64,000 nucleotides of DNA from IMG/VR virus record IMGVR_UViG_2579778660_000001; one strand, written 5' to 3'. Source of the stretch: a virus. Lineage: Duplodnaviria; Heunggongvirae; Uroviricota; Caudoviricetes. The notes below the pieces were generated by a model that was not told the DNA's origin, searched no databases, and worked only from the letters and a program-made list of their open reading frames with translations. The translations under genes were made by a program, and so were the position numbers. Shown here piece by piece: positions 1,770 to 55,100 of the stretch (positions within the stretch are counted from its first letter, which is position 1; each line of letters starts with the position of its first letter).

Positions 1770-2807
1770 TTACCAGAGCTTTGCGGCGCGCTGCGTTTGG
1801 GGGAATGTGTATCCGTAACGTTCTTCGATTGCTTTGCCGTATTTTTTACGCGCTTCATTCAGTTTGATGCCGGTCAGGTCGTCTCCAGAGGCCATCATTA
1901 CGTCTAACAATTCCAGATCCATTTTATCCAGCCTTGCCATTGCTTCACGCGATGTACGAATCTTACGTTCAATGATATGGCGAATAGCCGGATCGGCATC
2001 CTCCAGCATCTTAGCTGATTTCTGCTTAAGGTTTTCGTTGCGGATATCGATGTTCCTTAAGATATACGACTTCGCAACGTAGCTTGGCTGATGTTTTTCC
2101 AGGTCACGAACACGATATAAGCTAAAGTCGCCGAGAAGGCTGCAAGGCACCGATTCGACGCCAGAATAAATTGTAATGCTACGGCGTTCACCAACATTAT
2201 TGACAACGGGGATCGTTGTCTTCGGTAGTTTTGCGAAAACGAATGCGCCATGTGCGCCAACTCTAAAGCGAGAAAGGGCATTGCTGCCTTCGATGTTTGT
2301 TGTCAGCACAACATCTGTATATGCCTCTTTACGCGCCCGGTAGACCTCGCCTTCAGGCTCAGCTTCAAAGAAGCGCTGTTCTTCTTCAAGAGCACCTACG
2401 ATTTGAGAAAAAACCCTATTTTTCAGGCTTTTCTTTATGATTTTGTCGTATTTTTTGAGCAATTGTTCACGTGTAAATGTACGTGTTGTTGTAGCGCTTT
2501 GCACAACAACATGCGTGCTTTGATTGGTGTCCTCAATGATGAATGGGATCGGAGAATATACAGACTCAACAATGTTAGACGCTTTGCCGTCAGCATTACG
2601 GCACAAGTCAACAAAGGCTTTCCATTCTGCGAGGCACTTTTCAGCTTCTTCTAGTACATTTTGGTCGTGTGTTAGTGCAACGTGGCGGAATTCCTCGCCA
2701 GCATAACTGGTATCATGGAAAACAGAGTTTGCGACCACCAGCTCTTTCCACCGTTCAGCGGTTTGCAGGAACCGTTTGTACTCTTTCTCGATCGACTTCT
2801 TACTCAT
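1770..2807 (-). CDS. hypothetical protein (345 aa), operator motif directly upstream; possible immunity/regulatory function
   Basis: Long ORF convergent with terL; TTTTCTAACAT operator copy 20 bp upstream of start; no recognisable catalytic motif. Confidence 0.6.
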   Translation of the reverse strand: MSKKSIEKEYKRFLQTAERWKELVVANSVFHDTSYAGEEFRHVALTHDQNVLEEAEKCLAEWKAFVDLCRNADGKASNIVESVYSPIPFIIEDTNQSTHVVVQSATTTRTFTREQLLKKYDKIIKKSLKNRVFSQIVGALEEEQRFFEAEPEGEVYRARKEAYTDVVLTTNIEGSNALSRFRVGAHGAFVFAKLPKTTIPVVNNVGERRSITIYSGVESVPCSLLGDFSLYRVRDLEKHQPSYVAKSYILRNIDIRNENLKQKSAKMLEDADPAIRHIIERKIRTSREAMARLDKMDLELLDVMMASGDDLTGIKLNEARKKYGKAIEERYGYTFPQTQRAAKLW

Positions 2808-2821
2808 TATTCCTACTCGAT

Positions 2822-2836
2822 TTAGTTTTCTAACAT
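2822..2836. promoter_or_regulatory. operator-like motif TTAGTTTTCTAACAT (copy 1)
   Basis: Same 15-mer recurs at 20805-20819; core TTTTCTAACAT recurs at 7 loci. Confidence 0.55.
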
Positions 2837-3204
2837 AAAATCCCTATGACAAATCTATGTCGAATAACAGAGTGAGTAAAGGATCGAACTATGATTTTTT
2901 TGTCATCAACTTTAGAAAACCAACCGTTGAAACCACACTTCGCAAATTAAAGACCATGAAGGCAACGTGTTACTGTCCATCATCAATCTATGATGGATTA
3001 CAAAAAAAATCGGCATTTTATAACTTTAAATAATGGGGATTATTTAAAGTTAGGCTATAATCATGTGTAGATGAACAGTATTGACATCACTGAAAATACG
3101 TGCCTCGAATCAAAGGCTTGTATTTTGAAAATTAACTTATAGCTACCCTGTCATTTTTATATTTTTCGCGTAGCGTCATATGTATATAGAGGCGAAATAG
3201 TTTC

Positions 3205-4233
3205 ATGGGAGAATTAATTATCTCTGGCAGTTCCGGTGGTTTTCTGCGCAACATTGGCAAAGAGTACCAGGAAGCCGCAGAAAACTTTATGCGGTTCATG
3301 AATGACCAGGGGGCTTATGCGCCGAATACTCTGCGCGACCTCCGGTTGGTGTTTCATTCCTGGGCGCGCTGGTGTCACGCTCGCCAGCTCGCCTGGTTCC
3401 CGATCTCACCAGAAATGGCCCGCGAGTATTTTCTTCAGCTGCATGATGCCGATCTGGCTTCGACCACCATTGATAAGCACTACGCCATGCTGAACATGCT
3501 GCTTTCGCATTGTGGCCTTCCGCCACTTTCGGATGATAAAAGTGTTTCTCTGGCTATGCGGCGCATCCGGCGCGAAGCGGCAACTGAAAAAGGCGAACGA
3601 ACAGGCCAGGCTATACCGCTGCGGTGGGACGATCTGAAACTGCTCGACGTCCTGTTGTCCAGGTCAGAACGGCTGGTGGACCTGCGCAACCGGGCTTTTC
3701 TCTTTGTTGCATACAATACGCTGATGCGTATGTCGGAAATCTCGCGTATTCGTGTAGGAGATCTGGACCAAACAGGTGACACTGTCACGCTACATATTTC
3801 ACACACGAAGACAATAACGACCGCCGCCGGGCTTGATAAGGTGCTTTCCCGTCGCACTACCGCTGTGCTGAATGACTGGCTGGATGTTTCCGGGCTTCGC
3901 GAACATCGTGACGCAGTGCTGTTCCCGCCGATACACCGTAGCAATAAGGCCAGGATCACGACAACGCCCCTTACTGCACCTGCAATGGAGAAAATATTCA
4001 GCGACGCCTGGGTGTTGCTGAATAAAAGAGATGCTACGCCAAACAAAGGGAGATACCGGACGTGGACCGGGCATAGTGCACGCGTCGGGGCCGCTATTGA
4101 TATGGCTGAAAAGCAGGTGTCTATGGTGGAGATCATGCAGGAAGGAACCTGGAAGAAACCGGAAACACTTATGCGGTATCTGCGCCGTGGCGGTGTGTCT
4201 GTGGGGGCTAATAGCCGCCTGATGGATTCGTAA
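3205..4233 (+). CDS. cre: Cre-type tyrosine site-specific recombinase
   Basis: 342 aa; similar along whole length to P1 Cre as recalled (e.g. LNMLLSHCGLPPLSDDKSVSLAMRRIRRE, NTLMRMSEISRIRVGDL, WTGHSARVGAAIDMA). Confidence 0.9.
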   Translation: MGELIISGSSGGFLRNIGKEYQEAAENFMRFMNDQGAYAPNTLRDLRLVFHSWARWCHARQLAWFPISPEMAREYFLQLHDADLASTTIDKHYAMLNMLLSHCGLPPLSDDKSVSLAMRRIRREAATEKGERTGQAIPLRWDDLKLLDVLLSRSERLVDLRNRAFLFVAYNTLMRMSEISRIRVGDLDQTGDTVTLHISHTKTITTAAGLDKVLSRRTTAVLNDWLDVSGLREHRDAVLFPPIHRSNKARITTTPLTAPAMEKIFSDAWVLLNKRDATPNKGRYRTWTGHSARVGAAIDMAEKQVSMVEIMQEGTWKKPETLMRYLRRGGVSVGANSRLMDS

Positions 4234-41266: not shown

Positions 41267-41398
41267 TAAAATTAAAACACATAACAACATGACTGTTAAT
41301 AGATTTTATTTTACTAAAACTATTGACTAAATCACAAAGTAGGTATTGTTAGCCCGTCAAAAGAACCTTCACGCCGCGCCCGAATTTAGGGCTTAACC

Positions 41399-47785: not shown

Positions 47786-48493
47786 GTGAGTATTTTCAGC
47801 AGCGTTGGTAGAACGTTGACCACCGCATTGTCATTTAACACGAAATCATTCACCAGCAACCTCATTAGCGACATTCTTGATAAAGCCATATCAGGCGGCG
47901 GGGTAAGCGGGAATTACAGTAGCGATATTGCCTACGGGAAAAATATTGTTGCTGCCGCTATGCGTATCCGTTACGCCCAGGGGTGGCAGTGGACCGTTGA
48001 AGTGGATGGTCTGAACGGCTTCGATATGTTCGTGAAGGATATCACCTACAGCAGTGGGAACATCGAGACAGAAAGCAAGGTGATCGGCAGCGTAGAATTC
48101 AGCAAGCCAACCTATGTTAGCGCCGGACCGGTCACTATGACCGTGAGGGATACCGAAGATGGCAAGATCATGGACTGGTTCAAAGAGCGTCGTTCTCGTG
48201 TAACAAATCCTGATGGAACAATAAACCTTCCTCCGGAATATCTGATGAAAATCCGTGTCTACCGGGTAACTCAGGACGGCGGAAAAGAACTGGAAGAAGA
48301 AATGCGCGTATTTCCTACTCAACTTGGGGAAATCACTCGCTCACGTGATCAGGTGTCAGAGTTCTTGTCATACCCAATCACTTTCCAGAAATACACATCC
48401 GCAGGCTCAGGTGTTTCTGCTTTGGTCAACGGTGCCGCTGGCATGGCTACAAGTGCGTTAAAGGGGGCTGTGAGTGGAGTGATCAAATTCTGA
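47786..48493 (+). CDS. virion structural protein (235 aa)
   Basis: GTG start after GGAGG. Confidence 0.5.
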   Translation: MSIFSSVGRTLTTALSFNTKSFTSNLISDILDKAISGGGVSGNYSSDIAYGKNIVAAAMRIRYAQGWQWTVEVDGLNGFDMFVKDITYSSGNIETESKVIGSVEFSKPTYVSAGPVTMTVRDTEDGKIMDWFKERRSRVTNPDGTINLPPEYLMKIRVYRVTQDGGKELEEEMRVFPTQLGEITRSRDQVSEFLSYPITFQKYTSAGSGVSALVNGAAGMATSALKGAVSGVIKF

Positions 48494-48583
48494 ATAGCTT
48501 TAATTATGTGTGCTGGAGGGTTGCTCATTTCCCGTCAGCACCCACGACCTCAACGATAGCGGGTAGGGAAGGTAGCGCAATGT

Positions 48584-48878
48584 TGAGGGCATTTTTTACA
48601 TCATCAATCCATCAGCAATGAAGGCATTCTTTACATATTTCAATAATATCAATCAGTTAACACAGTGAATGATAATAAAAAAGCGCAATAAGAATGCACG
48701 ATACGCACGATATTGGTTGAGGGCGATTTTTACATAATCCTTACATATCAATATGTTATATAAAAACACAACTTGCTAATAACGAGATACATGCAATTAA
48801 GATGTAAAAATTGCCCTCAATTGCCGATCGTTAAGGGCAAATTCTACACCTTGAGAGGGGTGTAAAAATTGCCCTTAA
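48584..48878. repeat. iteron cluster downstream of repA (incA-like), both orientations
   Basis: TGAGGGC-N-TTTTTACA copies at 48584, 48717, inverted 48801; near-perfect 20+20 bp inverted pair 48832-48878 overlapping repA stop. Confidence 0.6.
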
Positions 48879-49630
48879 GACTGCTGATAGGTAAATTTTA
48901 TCCTGGTAACTTTGCCGCCTTCCGTCACCTCTGAGAAGACTATTTTCATTTTTGTATTTTTTTCAATCTCTGCTACAGCCTTCGTTAAAAAACTTCTCTT
49001 AAATTCGGCATACCGCTGATAACTTTTTGGTAACCCATAACGCTCCCGCATCCATTCGACGCCAAGTATGGCAAAGCCGCTTCCATCATCCTTCCTGTAC
49101 TGGCATAAGGACTCATAAAGCCGCATAGAATAAGGATTTGTAAGGCGAGATACTTCGGTAAAATTCAGCCTTGTGAATCTCTTATCAAGCAGAGTAAAAA
49201 ACGGCATGAGATATGGATTAAGATGAATAATGTAAGTCCCGCGCCGTGGTGAATAGGCATCCTTAATCATCCAGGGATAAGACTCATAACTGTCTTCTGA
49301 TTCGGTCGATTCATCAGGGTTATATATCGTAACTTTCTTCTCGCTAAGACCTGAAATGGCCTTACGAATATCCTTGCTGGCTTCAGCAGAGGGCAAATTA
49401 TACATCTCTGCATATTCGTTGACCGTCAACTCACAGGCACCTGAACCAAGAACGCCATCCTTAGAAGCATAGCGAAGTCTTCCCACCACAATAAACAACA
49501 GTCGCTTTTGGTCGCGAGTCAGGTGATAAGCAGCCTCCGTGATCTCATTGGCTTGTGCCAGACTACGACTAATAGGTGTCGCTGACTCAATCAGGCTGAC
49601 GGCTTTTGCTGTTAATTCCGCTCTGTTCAT
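48875..49630 (-). CDS. repA: RepA iteron-binding replication initiator
   Basis: Iterons on both sides; ATG at 49630 (MNRAELTAK...); track start 49663 is a TTG inside iteron 1. Confidence 0.8.
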   Translation of the reverse strand: MNRAELTAKAVSLIESATPISRSLAQANEITEAAYHLTRDQKRLLFIVVGRLRYASKDGVLGSGACELTVNEYAEMYNLPSAEASKDIRKAISGLSEKKVTIYNPDESTESEDSYESYPWMIKDAYSPRRGTYIIHLNPYLMPFFTLLDKRFTRLNFTEVSRLTNPYSMRLYESLCQYRKDDGSGFAILGVEWMRERYGLPKSYQRYAEFKRSFLTKAVAEIEKNTKMKIVFSEVTEGGKVTRIKFTYQQS

Positions 49631-49654
49631 AACCCTGTGTGATCCTTCAAATGG

Positions 49655-49772
49655 TGAGGGCAATTTTTACACCACTTTGAGGGCAATTACTACACCTTTT
49701 GAGGGCAAATCTTACACCTTCTGAGGGCAAATCTTACACCGATCGTATTTAATTGAGGGCAAATCTTACACC
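49655..49772. repeat. origin iterons, 5 direct repeats TGAGGGCAA(A/T)TNTTACACC
   Basis: Copies at 49655, 49678, 49700, 49722, 49754 (22-23 bp phasing); inverted degenerate copy at 49895-49914. Confidence 0.75.
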
Positions 49773-49865
49773 AGCCTCCTCTACAGCCCGCGCCACTACT
49801 GGCCCCAGCGACGCCTAAAAAGGATCTAAAAAGGATTAAAAATGGAAAAAGGTTTATAAAAATAC

Positions 49866-49874
49866 TCTGTGGAT
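49866..49874. promoter_or_regulatory. DnaA-box-like site in origin region
   Basis: TGTGGATAT = reverse complement ATATCCACA, 8/9 match to TTATCCACA; adjacent A-tract repeats 49815-49860. Confidence 0.35.
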
Positions 49875-50018
49875 ATGTGAGTAGCGTCACTTAAGGTGTA
49901 AAAATCACCCTCAATAATCGCTTCTCGACCGGCAAAGATCTTCATTCAATCCCCATCGCAAATCACACACTCCCTATCCTCTGGAAAATGAACAGATACC
50001 TGCTTTTCGGAGGAATAA

Positions 50019-50840
50019 TTGAACATTCCAAAATTCCCATTGCCTTCCCGTCCTGAGACAGAAATTCAGTTCCACGCCCCTACCGTGAAGGATGCGCTGA
50101 AATATTCTGACCTGAACCCGGCAGAAGATGAGGCAACGACTACAGAGTACCTTAACTCTATGCAGGATGGTGAAATTAACGACAGTGCTAACTGGACAGT
50201 TCAGGATCGCAGAACTGCTCTTTGGTGGATATTTGTTAATTCGCGCCCCGATGCTGTAATGACCTACTCCTATGAGTGCAGTCACTGCGGTAATACGCAT
50301 CATGCCGATATTAACCTGAGCGACCTGGCCCAAACAGTAGAAATACTCACTGTACCTCCTTACGTGAAAACCAACGTACCAGTAAATGGAGTACCAACTG
50401 ACTGGATACTTAAACCATTAACCGGGAAAGGCGCGGAACTCCTTGAACGAATGCGAGCGTCACTTCCTGATATGAAAAGTCCCGAATACAGTGCTGGCGT
50501 AGCACGGATGCGAATTGCTGAACTCGCTTTATGCACGGCGCTTAAAGACGATCCGGAGGACTTCACGCAGGCCGCTAACCGACGCTTTGACATCATTGAA
50601 AGCATGGCGCTTGAAACCGAATTTACCCCGCTTGTGGCTCGCATACAGCTTATGCAAAAAGACCTACGCCACGGCCTGAAAATGTCTATTGAGAGAGGCT
50701 CAAGCCGACTGATCCTGCCTCCGCAACATTGCAAAAACGCTAAGGAGGGTGCAGATGTGACAACCACACTGTACGTCCCCTTTCTCAATAGAGAGTTTAT
50801 CCCATCAATTAGATCTGAATGGATGGCTAACCATTATTAA
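50019..50840 (+). CDS. hypothetical protein (273 aa)
   Basis: TTG start 5 nt after GGAGGA; Cys/His cluster YSYECSHCGNTHH. Confidence 0.55.
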   Translation: MNIPKFPLPSRPETEIQFHAPTVKDALKYSDLNPAEDEATTTEYLNSMQDGEINDSANWTVQDRRTALWWIFVNSRPDAVMTYSYECSHCGNTHHADINLSDLAQTVEILTVPPYVKTNVPVNGVPTDWILKPLTGKGAELLERMRASLPDMKSPEYSAGVARMRIAELALCTALKDDPEDFTQAANRRFDIIESMALETEFTPLVARIQLMQKDLRHGLKMSIERGSSRLILPPQHCKNAKEGADVTTTLYVPFLNREFIPSIRSEWMANHY

Positions 50841-50894: not shown

Positions 50895-53800
50895 ATGGCG
50901 AGCACTCCATATGTCAAAAGCCCTGGAAGAAAAATACAAAGCTCAAGCCGGGAAACGTTGATCGCCGCTGGCAAAAGAGAGGTTATTTTGAAAGAGAATA
51001 AAGACCGTATCGCAATAATTGACGCTATTCAGGGGGCGAGCACAAACGAACTTAACGCTCTTGCTGAGATCAAAGACGCCATTCTCTCTGGTAGAGGGTC
51101 TATAACTCAACTTGGTGAAAATCAAGGTAAAGTAAGTCAAAGACTATCCCGTAGACTCATAGCAAGCGAACCCTATGTCTCTGATGATGCCAAGAATACC
51201 CAAGCTAACCCATATATAAAACGCCTTCCGATGAAAAAAGGGAGGACGCAGATCAACAACGGAGAAGAACGTCTCATTGTTGCAACCAACACATCAGAGC
51301 GCGTTCATTTTTCGTCATCACGCCAATCCGCCCAAAAGTTGAAAGGTTCTGTGCCAGTAGCCGCTAATTCTGCTCCTCTTGAACCACAATCCCCCCAAAG
51401 CCAAAAAGGACCGCTTCGGGATAGTAACGGACGCTTTGTATCCCAGAAAAACAACGAAGATATAGCCAGAAAAAAAGAATGGCAGAAAGCACGTAAGGCT
51501 GACGCCAAACTACAAGAAGGCTTCCTCCGAAAATTAGGCTCCATTATAGGGGTAGATGGCAATCAGTCTTCCAGTGAAGAGTCTTTAACAGATGCCGCAG
51601 GTGTTGGCGCTGGTGGTCCGTTGTGGATGGCTGCTCGCGGCATGTACGACATTACTAAAGAGATCACAGGTAAAGCAGTATCTCTTAAAGAATGGGTAGA
51701 AAAGGGGAAAGGTGAGGCTTCACCTTCGAAAGCGACATCTCCAGCTATCGCTTATCCGGCGGTGGTGAACACTCAAAAAGCAACCTCTGCAACAGCATTT
51801 AATAATGCTGTTGAGACAAAATCAGCACAAGCAGTAGAAGAGCAAACAAAAATTCTTCAGACCAATGACAACAAAATCATTGATGGTCTGGAAAATGTCT
51901 CCGACGAAGTAGTTAAGCTACGCAAATCAGTATCTTCTGGGAATAAGTTCGGCTTAAGTGATCTCTGGAAAAATCGAGCAAGCAGAAGAAATAAAATCAA
52001 TATTGGCGATCAGGCTGGTAAAAATAAACGGAACAAACCGAAAAGGAAAGGTCGCAATCTGGGGAAAAAAGCCCTTTCTGTTGGTGAAAAAGCCGCTGCC
52101 GGAACCGCTGCTGCTGGAGCTGGTGCCGTAGCTGCAAAGACTGTTAAAACAAAGGTTAGTAAAGCCAAAGACATCAGCACCACAAGCGACGCATCTAAGG
52201 GTATTGCTAAAGAAACAAAAAACACAACAAAGGCAGTTAAGTCAGCAGGTGTTGTTGCCGAAGAGGCCACAATTAAAACAGGTGAAACTGTTGCAAAGAA
52301 AAAAACCGAATCCTTAGCACTCAAAAGTGCTGCAAAAATAGGTGTTAAATCAGCTGCTTCTACAGCTGCAAGAGCTATCCCGATCATCGGCTCAGTGGCT
52401 ATGGCGGGATATGACGCTATAGATGGTTACACTGATACAGATGCGCAAAAGGCAGCCTTTGGATTAAGTGACGATGATGCTGTATCCGAACAGCAAAAAA
52501 CGGCTTACGCAACAGCTAATGTGCTCGATATGGGGGGCTTGGTGTCGGGCGCAACTAACTTGATAGGGAAAGGAATTTCTGCGCTAGGATTTGAAAGAGC
52601 AGGTGAAAAACTTCAGGATTTTGATACCGGAGATATTGCTCGTGGTGTTAACGGCGCGGTAGATATCACCAAATCTGTTTTTGGTAGCCTTAAGGATACA
52701 TTTTTATCCACTGACGAAAACACGAAACAAGTAAAAAAAGCTGTTGAAGACGGCACCAAAAAAACTGTCGATGCGATTCATTCTCTAGGTGAACAATTAC
52801 AAGGTGGGCGTAATGGCGAGGATGGAGTTGGTGAGCACGGGTATACTTCTCCAACTGAATTTAGTGCACCTGCCAACAACACCATTGCAGCGGATCTGAA
52901 TATTGGCGGCAGCAACGCTAAAAACCGCAATTACCGAAATAATAATCTCGGCAATCTTGTTTTTGCCAACCAGGAAGGGGCGACACTGGAATCGCCAAAT
53001 GCAAAAGGTGAACAACGTTTTGCGCGATTTAACACACCTGAAGAAGGGATCAGGGCACTGGCAAACCAGGTTTCCAGCTATTACAACGGCACCAGTGCCG
53101 CAGCGGGATATCAGAAGTTGCAGACGGTATCCAGCATCATTTCAAAATGGGCACCGCCAAATGAAAACAATACTAACCAATATATTGATAACGTCAGTAA
53201 ATATCTTGGTGTATCGCCTAATGAAAAAATAGATGTCAGCAAACCAGAGGTTATGACGCAATTAGTTCGTGCAATTGCGACGAAAGAAGGCGGAAATCCG
53301 GCAGTTAATAATGAGTTCATTAAGAACGCACTTGGAGCATTTAACACAAACACTGGTCGATGGGAGGGACAATTCTCTGACGAAACATTGGCGCGGATTA
53401 ATAAAATTCAGAAAGAAAATGGTGGTCAGCTAATTGCCCGCGATTCGCAATATAGTGTTGGTCGCAAGGTAAAATATGCTAATGGAAAATCTCCAGCTCA
53501 ACCAGTTTTGAATGCCGTTCCGACAGCAACACAACAGCCAATTGAGGTTGCACAACATGCCCAGGCAGTCAAAAAGCCACAAAAAACAGGTAACCAACCA
53601 CAACCGATTAATCCAGAGAACGCTGATGTTAATACCGGCTCTCCATCGAGTTTGCTTGAGCGGTTAATCGCAATAAATGAAAGCGGAATCAGTGGTGCAA
53701 GTAATTTATTTGGCGGCGCGGCTACCAGCCTTGCTGGAACAAGTCTGGATCTGGTAAAGGATTTTGCGTTGGCTACTTCGTTTGGTTCTATATCTTCGCT

Positions 53801-55100
53801 TTCCGAAAAAGCGAAAGGAATGGATCAGGCTCTTACTGAAAAGATATCCGGCTTAACCGGTAAATCTTTTGGATTTAAAAAAGCTTCTCAAGTGGCTGAT
53901 ATCGCAACAGCCATACAACAAAAACGCACTGTTAATCACGATACAGAAATCATTGATCTACTTCCGGGAGATCAAGTATCCCCTTTTACTCCGAAAACCC
54001 CACAGCAGGAGCAGGCTATAGCAATCAGCCAGGCTATGGCGGGCTTTTCGTCTGCAGCGCCAGCACCGAAAACCCCACAGCAGGAGCAGGCTATAGCAAT
54101 CAGCCAGGCTATGGAGGGCTTTTCGTCTGTAGCGCCAGCACCGAAAACCCCACAGCAGGAGCTGGCTCTAGCAATCAACCAGGCTATGGCGGGCTTTTCG
54201 TCTGCAGCGCCAGCACCGAAAACCCCACAGCAGGAGCAGGCTATAGCAATCAGCCAGGCTATGGAGGGCTTTTCGTCTGCAGCACCAGCACCGAAAACCC
54301 CACAGCAGGAGCAGGCTCTAGCAATCAACCAGGCTATGGCGGGCTTTTCATCTGCAGCACCAGCACCGAAAACCCCACAGCAGGAGCAGGCTCTAGCAAT
54401 CAACCAGGCTATGGCGGGAGCTGCGCCAGTAGTTACCTCTGGAAAACGAACTGTCACGGCACCAAGTGATGTGCAGATTTATGACAACGGCTACAAGGTG
54501 GTTACAGGTGAGGATAAGAGCTTCTTTGGTTCGCTATTTGATTCCACGGTGTCAGGGCTTAAACAGGCAGCAACCGCAGTAATTCCTGCCGTTGGCGATA
54601 ACCTTTCACGACTTGTTGGGGGGATTGATAGTACAGGGATATTGAACGATCTTGTAATGCAGTCTACTGGGCAGAATAGTGCGATTGCGCGAGCTATTAG
54701 CCCATTAACAAGAAATGTTGGAGACTGGCTGAATGGGGGGATTCAACAAACCGCTAATAGCATTAGGGGAATAGCAACTGGTGCCAATAACGCCATATTT
54801 GGCTCTGCTTCAGCTGTGCAAGAACCTTTTCTTGCTATGCCGCCACAACTCCCTACTGTAACCGATCTCGCACGAAGCGGAATAAGACAACCATTAACTA
54901 CTGACACTATAAATAACGATCCTGCTATGTTGAAGGCGCTGGATAACATCTGCTCTATCCTGAACGATCTGCTGAATGTGAACAAGAACAATACAAAAGG
55001 CGATCCGGATAATGTTGTCAAAACATCGCAGCCGCAGCCGCGACCACGTGCGAGCGCAACTATTAATGACCAGTCGCTGGATGCTCTGCTTGAGGATTAA
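50895..55100 (+). CDS. giant Sit/tape-measure-like protein with internal tandem repeats
   Basis: 1401 aa; Ala/Gly/Lys-rich helical N-part; central conserved region (NRNYRNNNLGNL...ATKEGGNP); six 25-aa repeats. Confidence 0.7.
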   Translation: MASTPYVKSPGRKIQSSSRETLIAAGKREVILKENKDRIAIIDAIQGASTNELNALAEIKDAILSGRGSITQLGENQGKVSQRLSRRLIASEPYVSDDAKNTQANPYIKRLPMKKGRTQINNGEERLIVATNTSERVHFSSSRQSAQKLKGSVPVAANSAPLEPQSPQSQKGPLRDSNGRFVSQKNNEDIARKKEWQKARKADAKLQEGFLRKLGSIIGVDGNQSSSEESLTDAAGVGAGGPLWMAARGMYDITKEITGKAVSLKEWVEKGKGEASPSKATSPAIAYPAVVNTQKATSATAFNNAVETKSAQAVEEQTKILQTNDNKIIDGLENVSDEVVKLRKSVSSGNKFGLSDLWKNRASRRNKINIGDQAGKNKRNKPKRKGRNLGKKALSVGEKAAAGTAAAGAGAVAAKTVKTKVSKAKDISTTSDASKGIAKETKNTTKAVKSAGVVAEEATIKTGETVAKKKTESLALKSAAKIGVKSAASTAARAIPIIGSVAMAGYDAIDGYTDTDAQKAAFGLSDDDAVSEQQKTAYATANVLDMGGLVSGATNLIGKGISALGFERAGEKLQDFDTGDIARGVNGAVDITKSVFGSLKDTFLSTDENTKQVKKAVEDGTKKTVDAIHSLGEQLQGGRNGEDGVGEHGYTSPTEFSAPANNTIAADLNIGGSNAKNRNYRNNNLGNLVFANQEGATLESPNAKGEQRFARFNTPEEGIRALANQVSSYYNGTSAAAGYQKLQTVSSIISKWAPPNENNTNQYIDNVSKYLGVSPNEKIDVSKPEVMTQLVRAIATKEGGNPAVNNEFIKNALGAFNTNTGRWEGQFSDETLARINKIQKENGGQLIARDSQYSVGRKVKYANGKSPAQPVLNAVPTATQQPIEVAQHAQAVKKPQKTGNQPQPINPENADVNTGSPSSLLERLIAINESGISGASNLFGGAATSLAGTSLDLVKDFALATSFGSISSLSEKAKGMDQALTEKISGLTGKSFGFKKASQVADIATAIQQKRTVNHDTEIIDLLPGDQVSPFTPKTPQQEQAIAISQAMAGFSSAAPAPKTPQQEQAIAISQAMEGFSSVAPAPKTPQQELALAINQAMAGFSSAAPAPKTPQQEQAIAISQAMEGFSSAAPAPKTPQQEQALAINQAMAGFSSAAPAPKTPQQEQALAINQAMAGAAPVVTSGKRTVTAPSDVQIYDNGYKVVTGEDKSFFGSLFDSTVSGLKQAATAVIPAVGDNLSRLVGGIDSTGILNDLVMQSTGQNSAIARAISPLTRNVGDWLNGGIQQTANSIRGIATGANNAIFGSASAVQEPFLAMPPQLPTVTDLARSGIRQPLTTDTINNDPAMLKALDNICSILNDLLNVNKNNTKGDPDNVVKTSQPQPRPRASATINDQSLDALLED
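53991..54425 (+). repeat. 75-bp tandem repeat, about 5.8 copies, in frame
   Basis: Unit CCGAAAACCCCACAGCAGGAGCAGGCT...; encodes PKTPQQEQAIAISQAMAGFSSAAPA. Confidence 0.85.

What the first reader, a model, noticed from the sequence alone, without database searches (positions are those of the whole stretch)
48584..49914. Iteron replicon with repeats on both sides of repA plus a DnaA-box-like site
Five phased direct iterons lie upstream of repA, and inverted or palindromic copies lie downstream overlapping the repA stop, giving an incC-repA-incA-like layout. A DnaA-box-like site and A-tract repeats sit beside the upstream array. This supports episomal maintenance of the element.
Basis: partly seen in the sequence, partly recalled or inferred. 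Interest (0 to 1): 0.4.

Follow-up and report, generated by a model that had tools for sequence, protein, structure and literature searches.

The report
Phage D6 plasmid-prophage iteron replicon
This stretch is the plasmid replication module (origin, initiator gene, copy-control repeats) of a phage-D6-like prophage that lives as a plasmid in E. coli; it is real and intact, but it is an already sequenced relative of the F-plasmid replicon.

Summary
A 19-bp repeat (TGAGGGCAAWTYTTACAYC) occurs 12 times within 3 mismatches, all inside 48584-49913, against 0.12 expected by chance. Five phased direct copies lie upstream of a 251-aa Rep_3 (WH1+WH2) initiator gene (49630..48875, minus strand). Six copies of mixed orientation lie downstream, the first overlapping the stop codon. 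One inverted copy lies beyond a DnaA box and an 80%-AT stretch.

The region is 98.6% identical to Escherichia phage D6, with RepA 100% identical. It is 99.9% identical to about 100 plasmids of roughly 90 kb from E. coli, Salmonella and Shigella.

The nearest characterised homologue is F-plasmid RepE/ori2 (50% aa identity), not P1 RepA, which shows no significant similarity. The origin aligns with F ori2, but F's dimer operator is missing. The iterons share F's right half only.

Relatives at 86% identity keep the iterons (99% upstream, 89-90% downstream) while the downstream spacers fall to about 50%. repA shows 56 synonymous against 4 non-synonymous codon changes.

Extras: two conserved IHF-like sites, an intragenic iteron conserved at the DNA level, and insertion inside a late operon that is contiguous in P1.

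Verdict: a functional, already known iteron theta replicon. Low interest.

The parts
49895..49913 (-). Outlying iteron (TGAGGGTGATTTTTACACC read on the minus strand). It is inverted relative to the origin array and lies on the far side of the DnaA box and the AT-rich element.
   Evidence: invariant in the 86%-identity relatives
49868..49876 (-). DnaA box ATATCCACA (8/9 match to TTATCCACA).
   Evidence: aligns with the DnaA boxes of F ori2; invariant in relatives; a TTATCCAC box sits at the same place in the Pantoea relative
49817..49866 (.). AT-rich putative DNA-unwinding element (80% AT). It has three AAAAAGGAT-type units and a GATC-containing 13-mer-like GATCCTTTTTAGG (minus strand).
   Evidence: (D7); aligns with the F ori2 AT-rich/13-mer segment TTTTTAGATC; DUE plus DnaA box 97% conserved in relatives
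49773..49816 (.). GC-rich spacer (70% G+C) between the AT-rich element and the iteron array.
   Evidence: same position as the GC-rich segment in F ori2 and Pantoea pPAT9B03
49754..49772 (+). Origin iteron 5 (TGAGGGCAAATCTTACACC on the plus strand).
49722..49740 (+). Origin iteron 4.
49700..49718 (+). Origin iteron 3.
49678..49696 (+). Origin iteron 2 (variant centre, TTACT).
49655..49673 (+). Origin iteron 1, 24 bp from the repA ATG. It contains the only promoter-like element found upstream of repA, an extended -10 TGTAAAAAT on the minus strand.
48875..49630 (-). repA, a 251-aa Rep_3 (WH1+WH2) initiator. 100% identical to phage D6 orf42; 50% identical to F RepE.
   Evidence: 56 synonymous vs 4 non-synonymous codon changes against pMIN14
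49388..49406 (+). Intragenic iteron-like site (AGAGGGCAAATTATACATC) in the same orientation as the origin array.
   Evidence: Its core ATGTATAATTTGCCCTC is the longest run of four-way nucleotide identity in repA among relatives of about 60% identity (17 nt; next 11). A run of 17 or more occurred in 0.01% of codon-position shuffles.
48859..48877 (-). Downstream iteron d1, inverted; it contains the repA stop codon.
   Evidence: the stop/iteron overlap is conserved in the Erwinia and Pantoea relatives
48832..48850 (+). Downstream iteron d2, direct; forms a head-to-head palindrome with d1.
   Evidence: (I12)
48801..48819 (-). Downstream iteron d3, inverted.
48746..48758 (+). IHF-like site TATCAATATGTTA (WATCARNNNNTTR), 9 bp beyond iteron d4.
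   Evidence: consensus positions kept and N positions changed in the 86% relatives
48718..48736 (+). Downstream iteron d4, direct.
48647..48659 (+). IHF-like site TATCAATCAGTTA, 9 bp beyond iteron d5. It is part of a 41-nt repeat unit shared with d4 and its IHF-like site.
   Evidence: (D6 family)
48619..48637 (+). Downstream iteron d5, degenerate (5 mismatches to the consensus).
   Evidence: conserved as a block in relatives whose flanking spacers are about 50% identical
48584..48602 (+). Downstream iteron d6, direct; outermost copy.

Best explanation
This is the plasmid-maintenance (theta) replicon of a phage-D6-type plasmid prophage. It is a self-contained cassette of about 1.5 kb (48494-50018), related to the F-plasmid ori2-repE-incC module.

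Inferred mechanism, by homology with F RepE. RepA monomers bind the five phased 19-bp iterons (49655-49772). Host DnaA binds the box at 49868-49876. Together, probably with HU or IHF, they melt the 80%-AT element at 49817-49866, and DnaB is then loaded.

The six iterons downstream of repA (48584-48877) act as the copy-number and incompatibility locus, equivalent to F incC and P1 incA. They would titrate RepA and pair ('handcuff') with the origin iterons. Two IHF-like bends may help the looping.

F's dimer operator is absent and the first iteron lies 24 bp from the ATG. repA is therefore most likely autoregulated P1-style, by RepA occupying iterons that overlap its promoter. The intragenic iteron may add to this.

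What is shown: the repeats and their layout, RepA family membership, homology of the origin to F ori2, purifying selection on repA and on the iterons, and the identity of the element. What is inferred: binding, melting, handcuffing and autoregulation.
For: Repeats far above chance: 12 observed against 0.12 expected, all in this 1.3-kb region, with 22-23-bp phasing.

RepA passes both Rep_3 Pfam domains. It matches the RepE crystal-structure sequences at E 1e-73 over 228 residues and is 50% identical to F RepE.

The origin DNA aligns with F ori2 in the same order: DnaA box, then ATATTTTTATAA...TTTTTAGATC, then a GC-rich segment, then iterons. The same order is seen in Pantoea pPAT9B03 and in Erwinia and Pantoea relatives.

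The right half of the iteron (AAATTGCCCTCA) equals F's, and the WH1 helix SAEASKDIR is identical. The left half and the WH2 helix both differ. A review reports that RepE WH2 contacts the GTG/GtCA end of the iteron (PMC4980987).

Phylogenetic footprint against 86%-identity relatives: upstream iterons 99%, downstream iterons 89-90%, DUE plus DnaA box 97%, downstream spacers 49-51%. repA shows 56 synonymous against 4 non-synonymous codon changes.

The element is phage D6-like: 98.6% nt identity, RepA 100% aa identity, and the same tub-rep-pmgB synteny. About 100 near-identical records exist as circular, non-mobilizable plasmids of roughly 90 kb.

The D6 annotation lists no other plasmid initiator, only the lytic repL. 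The roles of incC and of ori2 in F are documented in PMC13028717.
Against: There is no experiment on this replicon in any paper I could read. The D6 genome paper (PMC5800970) is not held.

No convincing sigma-70 promoter for repA was found. The only candidate is an extended -10 inside iteron 1 with no -35.

There is a single, imperfect DnaA box, whereas F has two.

The downstream iterons are of mixed orientation, unlike F incC, where all are inverted. Their exact role is therefore extrapolated.

RepA falls below the NCBIfam RepE equivalog cut-off (280.6 against 342). Functional equivalence in detail (chaperone dependence, dimer repression) is therefore not guaranteed.
Confidence: 0.88

Rival explanations
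1. The downstream cluster (48584-48877) is not mainly a copy-control locus. It would instead be a second origin, or a transcriptional barrier or terminator between the convergent repA gene and the tub late operon.
For: The cluster is 66% AT, with 69-75% AT spacers, and carries two IHF-like sites. The d1/d2 palindrome folds as a strong RNA hairpin from either strand (-31.5 and -27.5 kcal/mol; z -7.8 and -5.6). It sits exactly where the repA and tub transcripts converge.
Against: The cluster has no DnaA box within one mismatch. It has no phased direct array and no U-tract after the hairpin. The homologous position in F is incC, a documented negative copy-control locus. What is conserved in relatives is the 19-mers, not the AT-rich spacers. 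The upstream side is the one that aligns with F ori2.
Confidence: 0.07
2. The replicon is a vestigial or redundant remnant, and the prophage is maintained by another replication system such as repL or an unrecognised origin.
For: No experiment in the accessible literature ties this gene to maintenance. The D6 GenBank note reads 'similar to P1 gene repA?; putative'.
Against: The ORF is intact and under strong purifying selection (56 synonymous against 4 non-synonymous). The iterons are conserved where the spacers are not. RepA is 98-100% identical in 17 viral contigs and more than 100 plasmids. It is the only plasmid-type initiator annotated in D6. In P1, repL is the lytic replicon under C1 control.
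Confidence: 0.03
3. The repeats are a chance or low-complexity artefact.
For: None beyond the AT-rich context.
Against: 12 hits against 0.12 expected, with 0 of 100 shuffles reaching 12. The repeats are conserved across relatives and share half their sequence with the F iterons.
Confidence: 0.01

Closest known systems
Escherichia phage D6 orf42 ('repA?') region, and the D6-like plasmid prophages such as Salmonella pYU39_89 (MOB-suite rep_cluster_1704)
   Same: 98.6% nucleotide identity over 1.7 kb; RepA 100% identical; same position between the tub and pmgB homologues. pYU39_89 matches at 98.6% (H64), and its paper already states that its repB is 'associated with iteron sequences' (PMC6799933).
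   Different: Only single-base differences, for example in iterons 1 and d4. The GenBank records annotate the gene but carry no origin, iteron, DnaA-box or IHF features.
F plasmid RepFIA replicon: ori2 (incB iterons) - repE - incC
   Same: The initiator is 50% identical over 228 aa, with crystal-structure matches at 1e-73. The order is the same: DnaA box, AT-rich 13-mer region, GC-rich segment, direct iterons, rep, then an iteron cluster starting at the stop codon. The iteron right half AAATTGCCCTCA is shared.
   Different: There are five origin iterons rather than four, and one DnaA box rather than two. F's roughly 95-bp promoter/operator with inverted TGTGACAA half-sites is missing; here only 24 bp separate the iterons from the ATG. 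The iteron left half is GGTGTAA rather than TGTGACA. The downstream iterons are of mixed orientation and come with IHF-like sites. An extra inverted iteron lies beyond the DnaA box, and there is an intragenic iteron. No sopABC partition genes are adjacent. RepA is below the RepE equivalog cut-off.
P1 plasmid replicon oriR: incC - repA - incA (IncY)
   Same: The layout and the probable logic are analogous. There are five direct iterons next to the initiator gene, with PrepA lying inside them in P1, and a multi-iteron control locus starting at the stop codon. There is a DnaA box and an AT-rich region with GATC. Both maintain a P1-supercluster prophage as a low-copy plasmid.
   Different: There is no significant protein similarity and the iteron sequence is unrelated. 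P1 has five GATC sites in the origin; this element has one in the AT-rich stretch. P1's replicon lies next to parAB beyond gene 23. This one is inserted between tub and pmgB, which are 14 bp apart in P1.
RepE-like replicons of Erwiniaceae plasmids (Pantoea sp. At-9b pPAT9B03, Pantoea sp. App145 pAPP145_3, an Erwinia aeris contig)
   Same: They use the same iteron family (TGAGGGCAnnTnnTACAyC), with five 22-bp-phased origin iterons and a downstream cluster whose first copy overlaps the stop codon. They carry the same intragenic 17-mer and the same DnaA-box/AT-rich arrangement.
   Different: RepA identity is 60-63% aa. The downstream clusters are larger (about 7-12 copies, mostly one orientation). 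At least the Erwinia locus is not flanked by phage tail genes.

Membership tests
Rep_3 (PF01051/PF21205) iteron-type theta replicons | Initiator with WH1 and WH2 winged-helix domains | tested here: met
   Rep3_N 102.7 bits (cut-off 22.4) and Rep3_C 58.3 bits (cut-off 21.1); full-length match to RepE structures
Rep_3 (PF01051/PF21205) iteron-type theta replicons | Array of directly repeated initiator-binding sites (17-22 bp, phased at about two helical turns) next to the rep gene | tested here: met
   Five 19-mers at 23/22/22/32-bp spacing; the repeats are shown, binding is not
Rep_3 (PF01051/PF21205) iteron-type theta replicons | DnaA box and AT-rich unwinding element flanking the iterons | tested here: met
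   ATATCCACA at 49868-49876 and 80% AT at 49817-49866; homologous to F ori2
Rep_3 (PF01051/PF21205) iteron-type theta replicons | Rep-dependent autonomous replication of the cloned module | not testable with these tools
   Needs cloning into a conditional-origin vector
RepFIA (F ori2/RepE, IncFIA) | Initiator is a RepE equivalog | tested here: not met
   NCBIfam NF010305 scores 280.6 bits against a cut-off of 342; 50% identity
RepFIA (F ori2/RepE, IncFIA) | F-type 19-bp iteron TGTGACAAATTGCCCTCAG | tested here: not met
   The right half is identical; the left half is GGTGTAA(A/G)A, not TGTGACAA
RepFIA (F ori2/RepE, IncFIA) | Inverted half-iteron operator between the origin iterons and repE, for dimer autorepression | tested here: not met
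   Only 24 bp lie between iteron 1 and the ATG; no inverted half-sites
RepFIA (F ori2/RepE, IncFIA) | Iteron cluster (incC) immediately downstream of the initiator gene | tested here: met
   Six copies at 48584-48877, the first overlapping the stop codon
P1 oriR/RepA (IncY) | Initiator homologous to P1 RepA | tested here: not met
   BLASTP best E 0.057 over 44 aa
P1 oriR/RepA (IncY) | Cluster of five GATC (Dam) sites in the AT-rich origin; replicon adjacent to parAB-parS | tested here: not met
   One GATC in the AT-rich element; the D6 partition genes lie about 10 kb away; P1 features
Phage D6-type plasmid-prophage replicon (MOB-suite rep_cluster_1704) | Near-identity to D6 orf42 and its flanks, located between the tub and pmgB homologues of a P1-supercluster prophage | tested here: met
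   98.6% nt identity and 100% aa identity to D6; synteny; rep_cluster_1704 typing of 99.9%-identical plasmids

The most novel reading that the evidence does not exclude
The D6-type replicon would be a regulatory hybrid that nobody has dissected. It would be an F-RepE-type initiator that has lost the dimer operator and instead represses itself through origin iterons that abut the start codon. An intragenic iteron kept by DNA-level selection, and IHF-bent looping to a mixed-orientation control cluster, would add to this.

The cassette sits antisense inside a late operon that is contiguous in P1 (pmgC-tub | pmgB-sit). Late lytic transcription would then run through the control locus, repA (antisense) and the origin. 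That would switch plasmid-mode replication off, or alter it, during lytic growth.
Probability: 0.2. Interest if true: 0.35.

Novelty: already known. Interest (0 to 1): 0.18.

Why it matters
D6-like phage-plasmids are widespread in E. coli, Shigella and Salmonella, including invasive multidrug-resistant S. Typhimurium ST213 (PMC6799933). According to a 2025 preprint, their replication gene is absent from common plasmid-typing databases (10.1101/2025.09.12.675607).

An explicit map of the origin, iterons, DnaA box and control locus helps to annotate and type these elements. It also helps to predict incompatibility: the iterons are distinct from those of F and P1, so co-residence should be possible. 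It defines a minimal 1.5-kb cassette for vectors or for curing experiments.

Biologically it adds nothing fundamental. It is a standard iteron replicon, and it illustrates replicon swapping among P1-supercluster prophages.

Tried and rejected
1. I first recalled that this was the PlasmidFinder 'p0111' replicon. That was wrong. p0111 is an alternative repA found at the P1 repA position in P1-like elements, and D6's rep is reported as absent from those databases.

2. The D6 genome paper (PMC5800970 / 10.1016/j.virol.2017.12.019) is not held. I could not check what it says about the origin.

3. The sigma-70 scan found no repA promoter. A relaxed scan gave only an extended -10 inside iteron 1. The promoter remains unresolved.

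4. I searched for P1-type late promoters (the -22 box plus -10) between the origin and pmgB. No convincing site was found, but my patterns also missed the likely capsid late promoter. This test is therefore uninformative.

5. I looked for an F-style operator (inverted WH2 half-sites about 9 bp apart). The only inverted pairs are whole iterons in the downstream cluster, with the wrong geometry.

6. The 36-kb plasmid NZ_CP027382 looked like a possible natural mini-replicon. It was rejected because the record is linear, probably an incomplete assembly, and still carries phage genes.

7. Rfam found no RNA family anywhere in the window.

8. The hairpin after the tub stop codon (48494-48585) is no better than shuffled sequence (z 0.70).

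9. pSa1423-90k (90% identity) was dropped from the conservation counts because it is full of small indels.

10. The IHF consensus is not enriched across the window as a whole (8 observed against 6 expected). Only the local pairing of the sites with iterons and their conservation are meaningful.
Full report
**What is in the sequence**

Between the stop of a P1-tub-like tail-tube gene (47786-48493, + strand) and the start of a pmgB-like gene (50019-50840, + strand) lies a 1.5-kb segment. It carries one minus-strand ORF. The mechanically listed ORF starts at a TTG (49663). The ATG at 49630 gives a 251-aa product, the same length as in the D6 and RefSeq annotations.

A 19-bp motif, TGAGGGCAAWTYTTACAYC, occurs 12 times at up to 3 mismatches in the whole 64-kb window. 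Every copy lies between 48584 and 49913. Dinucleotide-preserving shuffles give a mean of 0.12 and never more than 2.

Read in the direction of repA, the order of features is as follows:

| Position | Feature |
|---|---|
| 49913-49895 | inverted iteron |
| 49876-49868 | DnaA box ATATCCACA |
| 49866-49817 | 50-bp stretch of 80% A+T, with three AAAAAGGAT-type units and one GATC |
| 49816-49773 | 44-bp stretch of 70% G+C |
| 49772-49655 | five direct iterons, spacings 32, 22, 22 and 23 bp |
| 49654-49631 | 24 bp of leader |
| 49630-48875 | repA |
| 48877-48584 | six further iterons: inverted, direct, inverted, direct, direct (degenerate), direct |

The first downstream iteron contains the TAA stop codon.

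**What the element is**

The 1.7 kb around the finding is 98.6% identical to Escherichia phage D6. The RepA protein is 100% identical to D6 orf42. The GenBank note for orf42 reads 'similar to P1 gene repA?; pfam01051; putative plasmid replication initiation'.

The region is 99.9% identical to many circular, non-mobilizable plasmids of about 90 kb from E. coli, Shigella and Salmonella. MOB-suite types them as rep_cluster_1704. The rest of the window is collinear with D6 where I could check it. A paper on the D6-like Salmonella plasmid pYU39_89, itself 98.6% identical here, already states that its repB is 'associated with iteron sequences' (PMC6799933).

I had first recalled that this was the PlasmidFinder p0111 replicon. 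Two papers show that p0111 is a different repA, found at the P1 repA position. They also report that D6's rep is not in the common typing databases.

**Which family it belongs to**

RepA has both Rep_3 domains, well above Pfam's thresholds. Its best matches among solved structures are the F-plasmid RepE entries, at E about 1e-73 over residues 21-249. Pairwise identity to F RepE is 50%, E 2e-86. It scores 280.6 bits on NCBI's RepE equivalog model, below the cut-off of 342. P1 RepA shows no significant similarity.

Among PLSDB plasmids there is a gap. 108 records are at 95% or above, one record is at 60-80%, and then thousands of RepFIA RepE genes follow at about 51%.

The origin DNA itself aligns with F ori2. 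It shares the DnaA box (TATCCAC), the ATATTTTTATAA...TTTTTAGATC AT-rich/13-mer segment, a GC-rich segment and then the iterons. The iterons share F's right half (AAATTGCCCTCA) but have GGTGTAA(A/G)A where F has TGTGACAA.

The WH1 helix SAEASKDIR is identical in the two proteins, whereas the WH2 helix region differs (QRYAEFKRSFL against QRMPDFRRRFL). A review reports that RepE WH2 contacts the GTG/GtCA end of the iteron (PMC4980987). The diverged protein helix thus matches the diverged half of the site. This fits a distinct specificity, and hence a distinct incompatibility group, but that is inference.

So 'incC-repA-incA-like' is right as an analogy. The homologous system is F ori2(incB)-repE-incC.

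**Differences from F**

F has about 95 bp between its last origin iteron and repE. That segment carries the promoter and an inverted repeat of TGTGACAA half-sites, which is bound by RepE dimers (PMC13028717). Here that segment is absent: iteron 1 ends 24 bp from the ATG.

No F-type operator geometry exists anywhere in the region. The only inverted pairs are whole iterons in the downstream cluster. The standard promoter scan finds no repA promoter. A relaxed scan finds only an extended -10 (TGTAAAAAT) inside iteron 1.

The arrangement therefore resembles P1, where PrepA lies inside the incC iterons. Autoregulation by iteron occupancy is my inference.

Other differences from F:
- one DnaA box rather than two;
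- five origin iterons rather than four;
- an extra inverted iteron on the far side of the DnaA box;
- mixed orientation downstream;
- no adjacent partition operon. D6's ParM/StbA-like and ParA-like genes are about 10 kb away.

**Evidence that the parts are functional**

Two relatives at about 86% identity give a clear phylogenetic footprint: E. coli pMUB-MIN14-1 and an E. marmotae plasmid, both with the same tub-rep-pmgB synteny.

| Region | Identity to the window |
|---|---|
| Upstream iterons | 99% |
| AT-rich element plus DnaA box | 97% |
| repA | 91.5% |
| Downstream iterons | 89-90% |
| Spacers between the downstream iterons | 49-51% |

Even the degenerate copy at 48619-48637 is kept as a block.

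repA differs from these relatives by 56-57 synonymous but only 3-4 non-synonymous codons. This rules out a decaying remnant.

More distant relatives on ordinary Erwiniaceae plasmids have 60-63% aa identity: Pantoea sp. At-9b pPAT9B03, Pantoea sp. App145 pAPP145_3 and an Erwinia aeris contig. They use the same iteron family. They show the same plan: DnaA box, AT-rich element, GC-rich segment, five 22-bp-phased iterons, rep, and a downstream cluster whose first copy overlaps the stop codon. The D6 lineage therefore appears to have captured a plasmid replicon of this subfamily.

**Additional features not in the finding**

1. There are two IHF-consensus sites, at 48647-48659 and 48746-48758. Each lies 9 bp beyond an iteron, within a 41-nt repeated unit. 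The consensus is not enriched in the window overall (8 observed against 6 expected). However, two sites in 294 bp, in the same register, is locally unexpected. In the 86% relatives the consensus positions are kept while the N positions change. I read them as probable bends that aid looping between the control cluster and the origin; this is inferred.

2. An iteron-like site lies inside repA at 49388-49406. Its core, ATGTATAATTTGCCCTC, is the longest stretch of four-way nucleotide identity in an alignment of repA with the three Erwiniaceae genes. It is 17 nt long, the next longest is 11, and overall four-way identity is 50%. Such a run arose in 0.01% of codon-position-preserving shuffles. The corresponding F sequence is not iteron-like. 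This points to DNA-level constraint, most simply another RepA site. Its role is unknown.

3. In P1, tub and pmgB are 14 bp apart, inside one late operon driven by LPsit. Here the replicon cassette sits between them on the opposite strand. I could not identify a promoter for pmgB downstream of the cassette, but my late-promoter patterns were not reliable. Whether late transcription crosses the replicon is open.

4. The d1/d2 head-to-head iteron pair would form a strong hairpin in transcripts of either strand (-31.5 and -27.5 kcal/mol). No U-tract follows it.

**Rivals**

- The downstream cluster could be a second origin or mainly a transcription barrier. It lacks a DnaA box and a phased array. 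Its AT-rich spacers are the least conserved part. It also occupies the position of F incC, a documented negative control locus. I give this rival 0.07.
- The replicon could be vestigial. That is contradicted by the selection data and by the absence of any other plasmid initiator in the D6 annotation. I give it 0.03.
- Chance is excluded.

**Verdict**

This is a genuine, intact iteron-type theta replicon. It is the plasmid-prophage origin of a phage-D6-like element, homologous to F ori2-repE-incC and analogous to P1 incC-repA-incA.

The gene is annotated in public records, and the presence of iterons has been noted in print. I therefore rate it as already known.

What this analysis adds is the detailed map, the F-ori2 homology, the missing operator, the IHF-like sites and the intragenic iteron. 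These are modest points for a specialist. None has been tested experimentally in the literature available to me, and the D6 genome paper could not be read.

Noticed in passing
window 49388-49406: There is an iteron-like site inside the repA coding sequence. Its 17-nt core is the longest run of four-way nucleotide identity among repA genes that are only about 60% identical (a run of 17 or more in 0.01% of codon-position shuffles). It is absent from F repE.
   Followed up: yes
window 48647-48659 and 48746-48758: Two IHF-consensus sites lie in the downstream iteron cluster, each 9 bp from an iteron. In 86%-identity relatives the consensus positions are conserved while the N positions vary.
   Followed up: partly
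window 48494-50018 (compare P1 NC_005856 45373-45388): The replicon cassette interrupts, on the opposite strand, what in P1 is a contiguous late operon; tub and pmgB are 14 bp apart there. No clear promoter for pmgB was found between the origin and 50019. A block at about 49955-49980 is conserved in relatives.
   Followed up: partly
window 49263-49265 (RepA residue 123, context MIKDAYSP): RepA has Asp at the position aligned with F RepE R118, the residue changed in the monomeric copy-up mutant RepE54 (R118P). This could bear on the absence of a dimer operator, but it is only a lead.
   Followed up: no
window 50895-55100, especially 53903-54477: The sit-like tail transglycosylase ORF is 1401 aa, against 1260 aa in D6. 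It contains about six tandem repeats of roughly 25 aa (PKTPQQEQAIAISQAM.GFSS.APA). The repeat region has no BLAST match in D6.
   Followed up: no
L013 (CALWLV010000256.1, 'uncultured Roseburia sp.' MAG): An 11-kb contig binned as Roseburia encodes a RepA 100% identical to the window's. It is most likely a mis-binned enterobacterial phage-plasmid contig.
   Followed up: no
L005 (NZ_MK356557.1 pSa1423-90k) 2400-4050: This D6-like plasmid record has many 1-4-nt indels through repA and the iterons. It looks like uncorrected long-read error rather than biology, so I excluded it from the conservation counts.
   Followed up: partly
window 48832-48877: The head-to-head iteron pair that spans the repA stop codon would fold as a strong hairpin in RNA from either strand (-31.5 and -27.5 kcal/mol; z -7.8 and -5.6), but no U-tract follows.
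   Followed up: partly
window 41280-41310: A likely P1-type late promoter lies upstream of the capsid gene (AACATGACTGTTAATAGATT, a -22-box-like element plus TAGATT). It shows that D6-type late promoters deviate from the P1 pattern I searched with.
   Followed up: no
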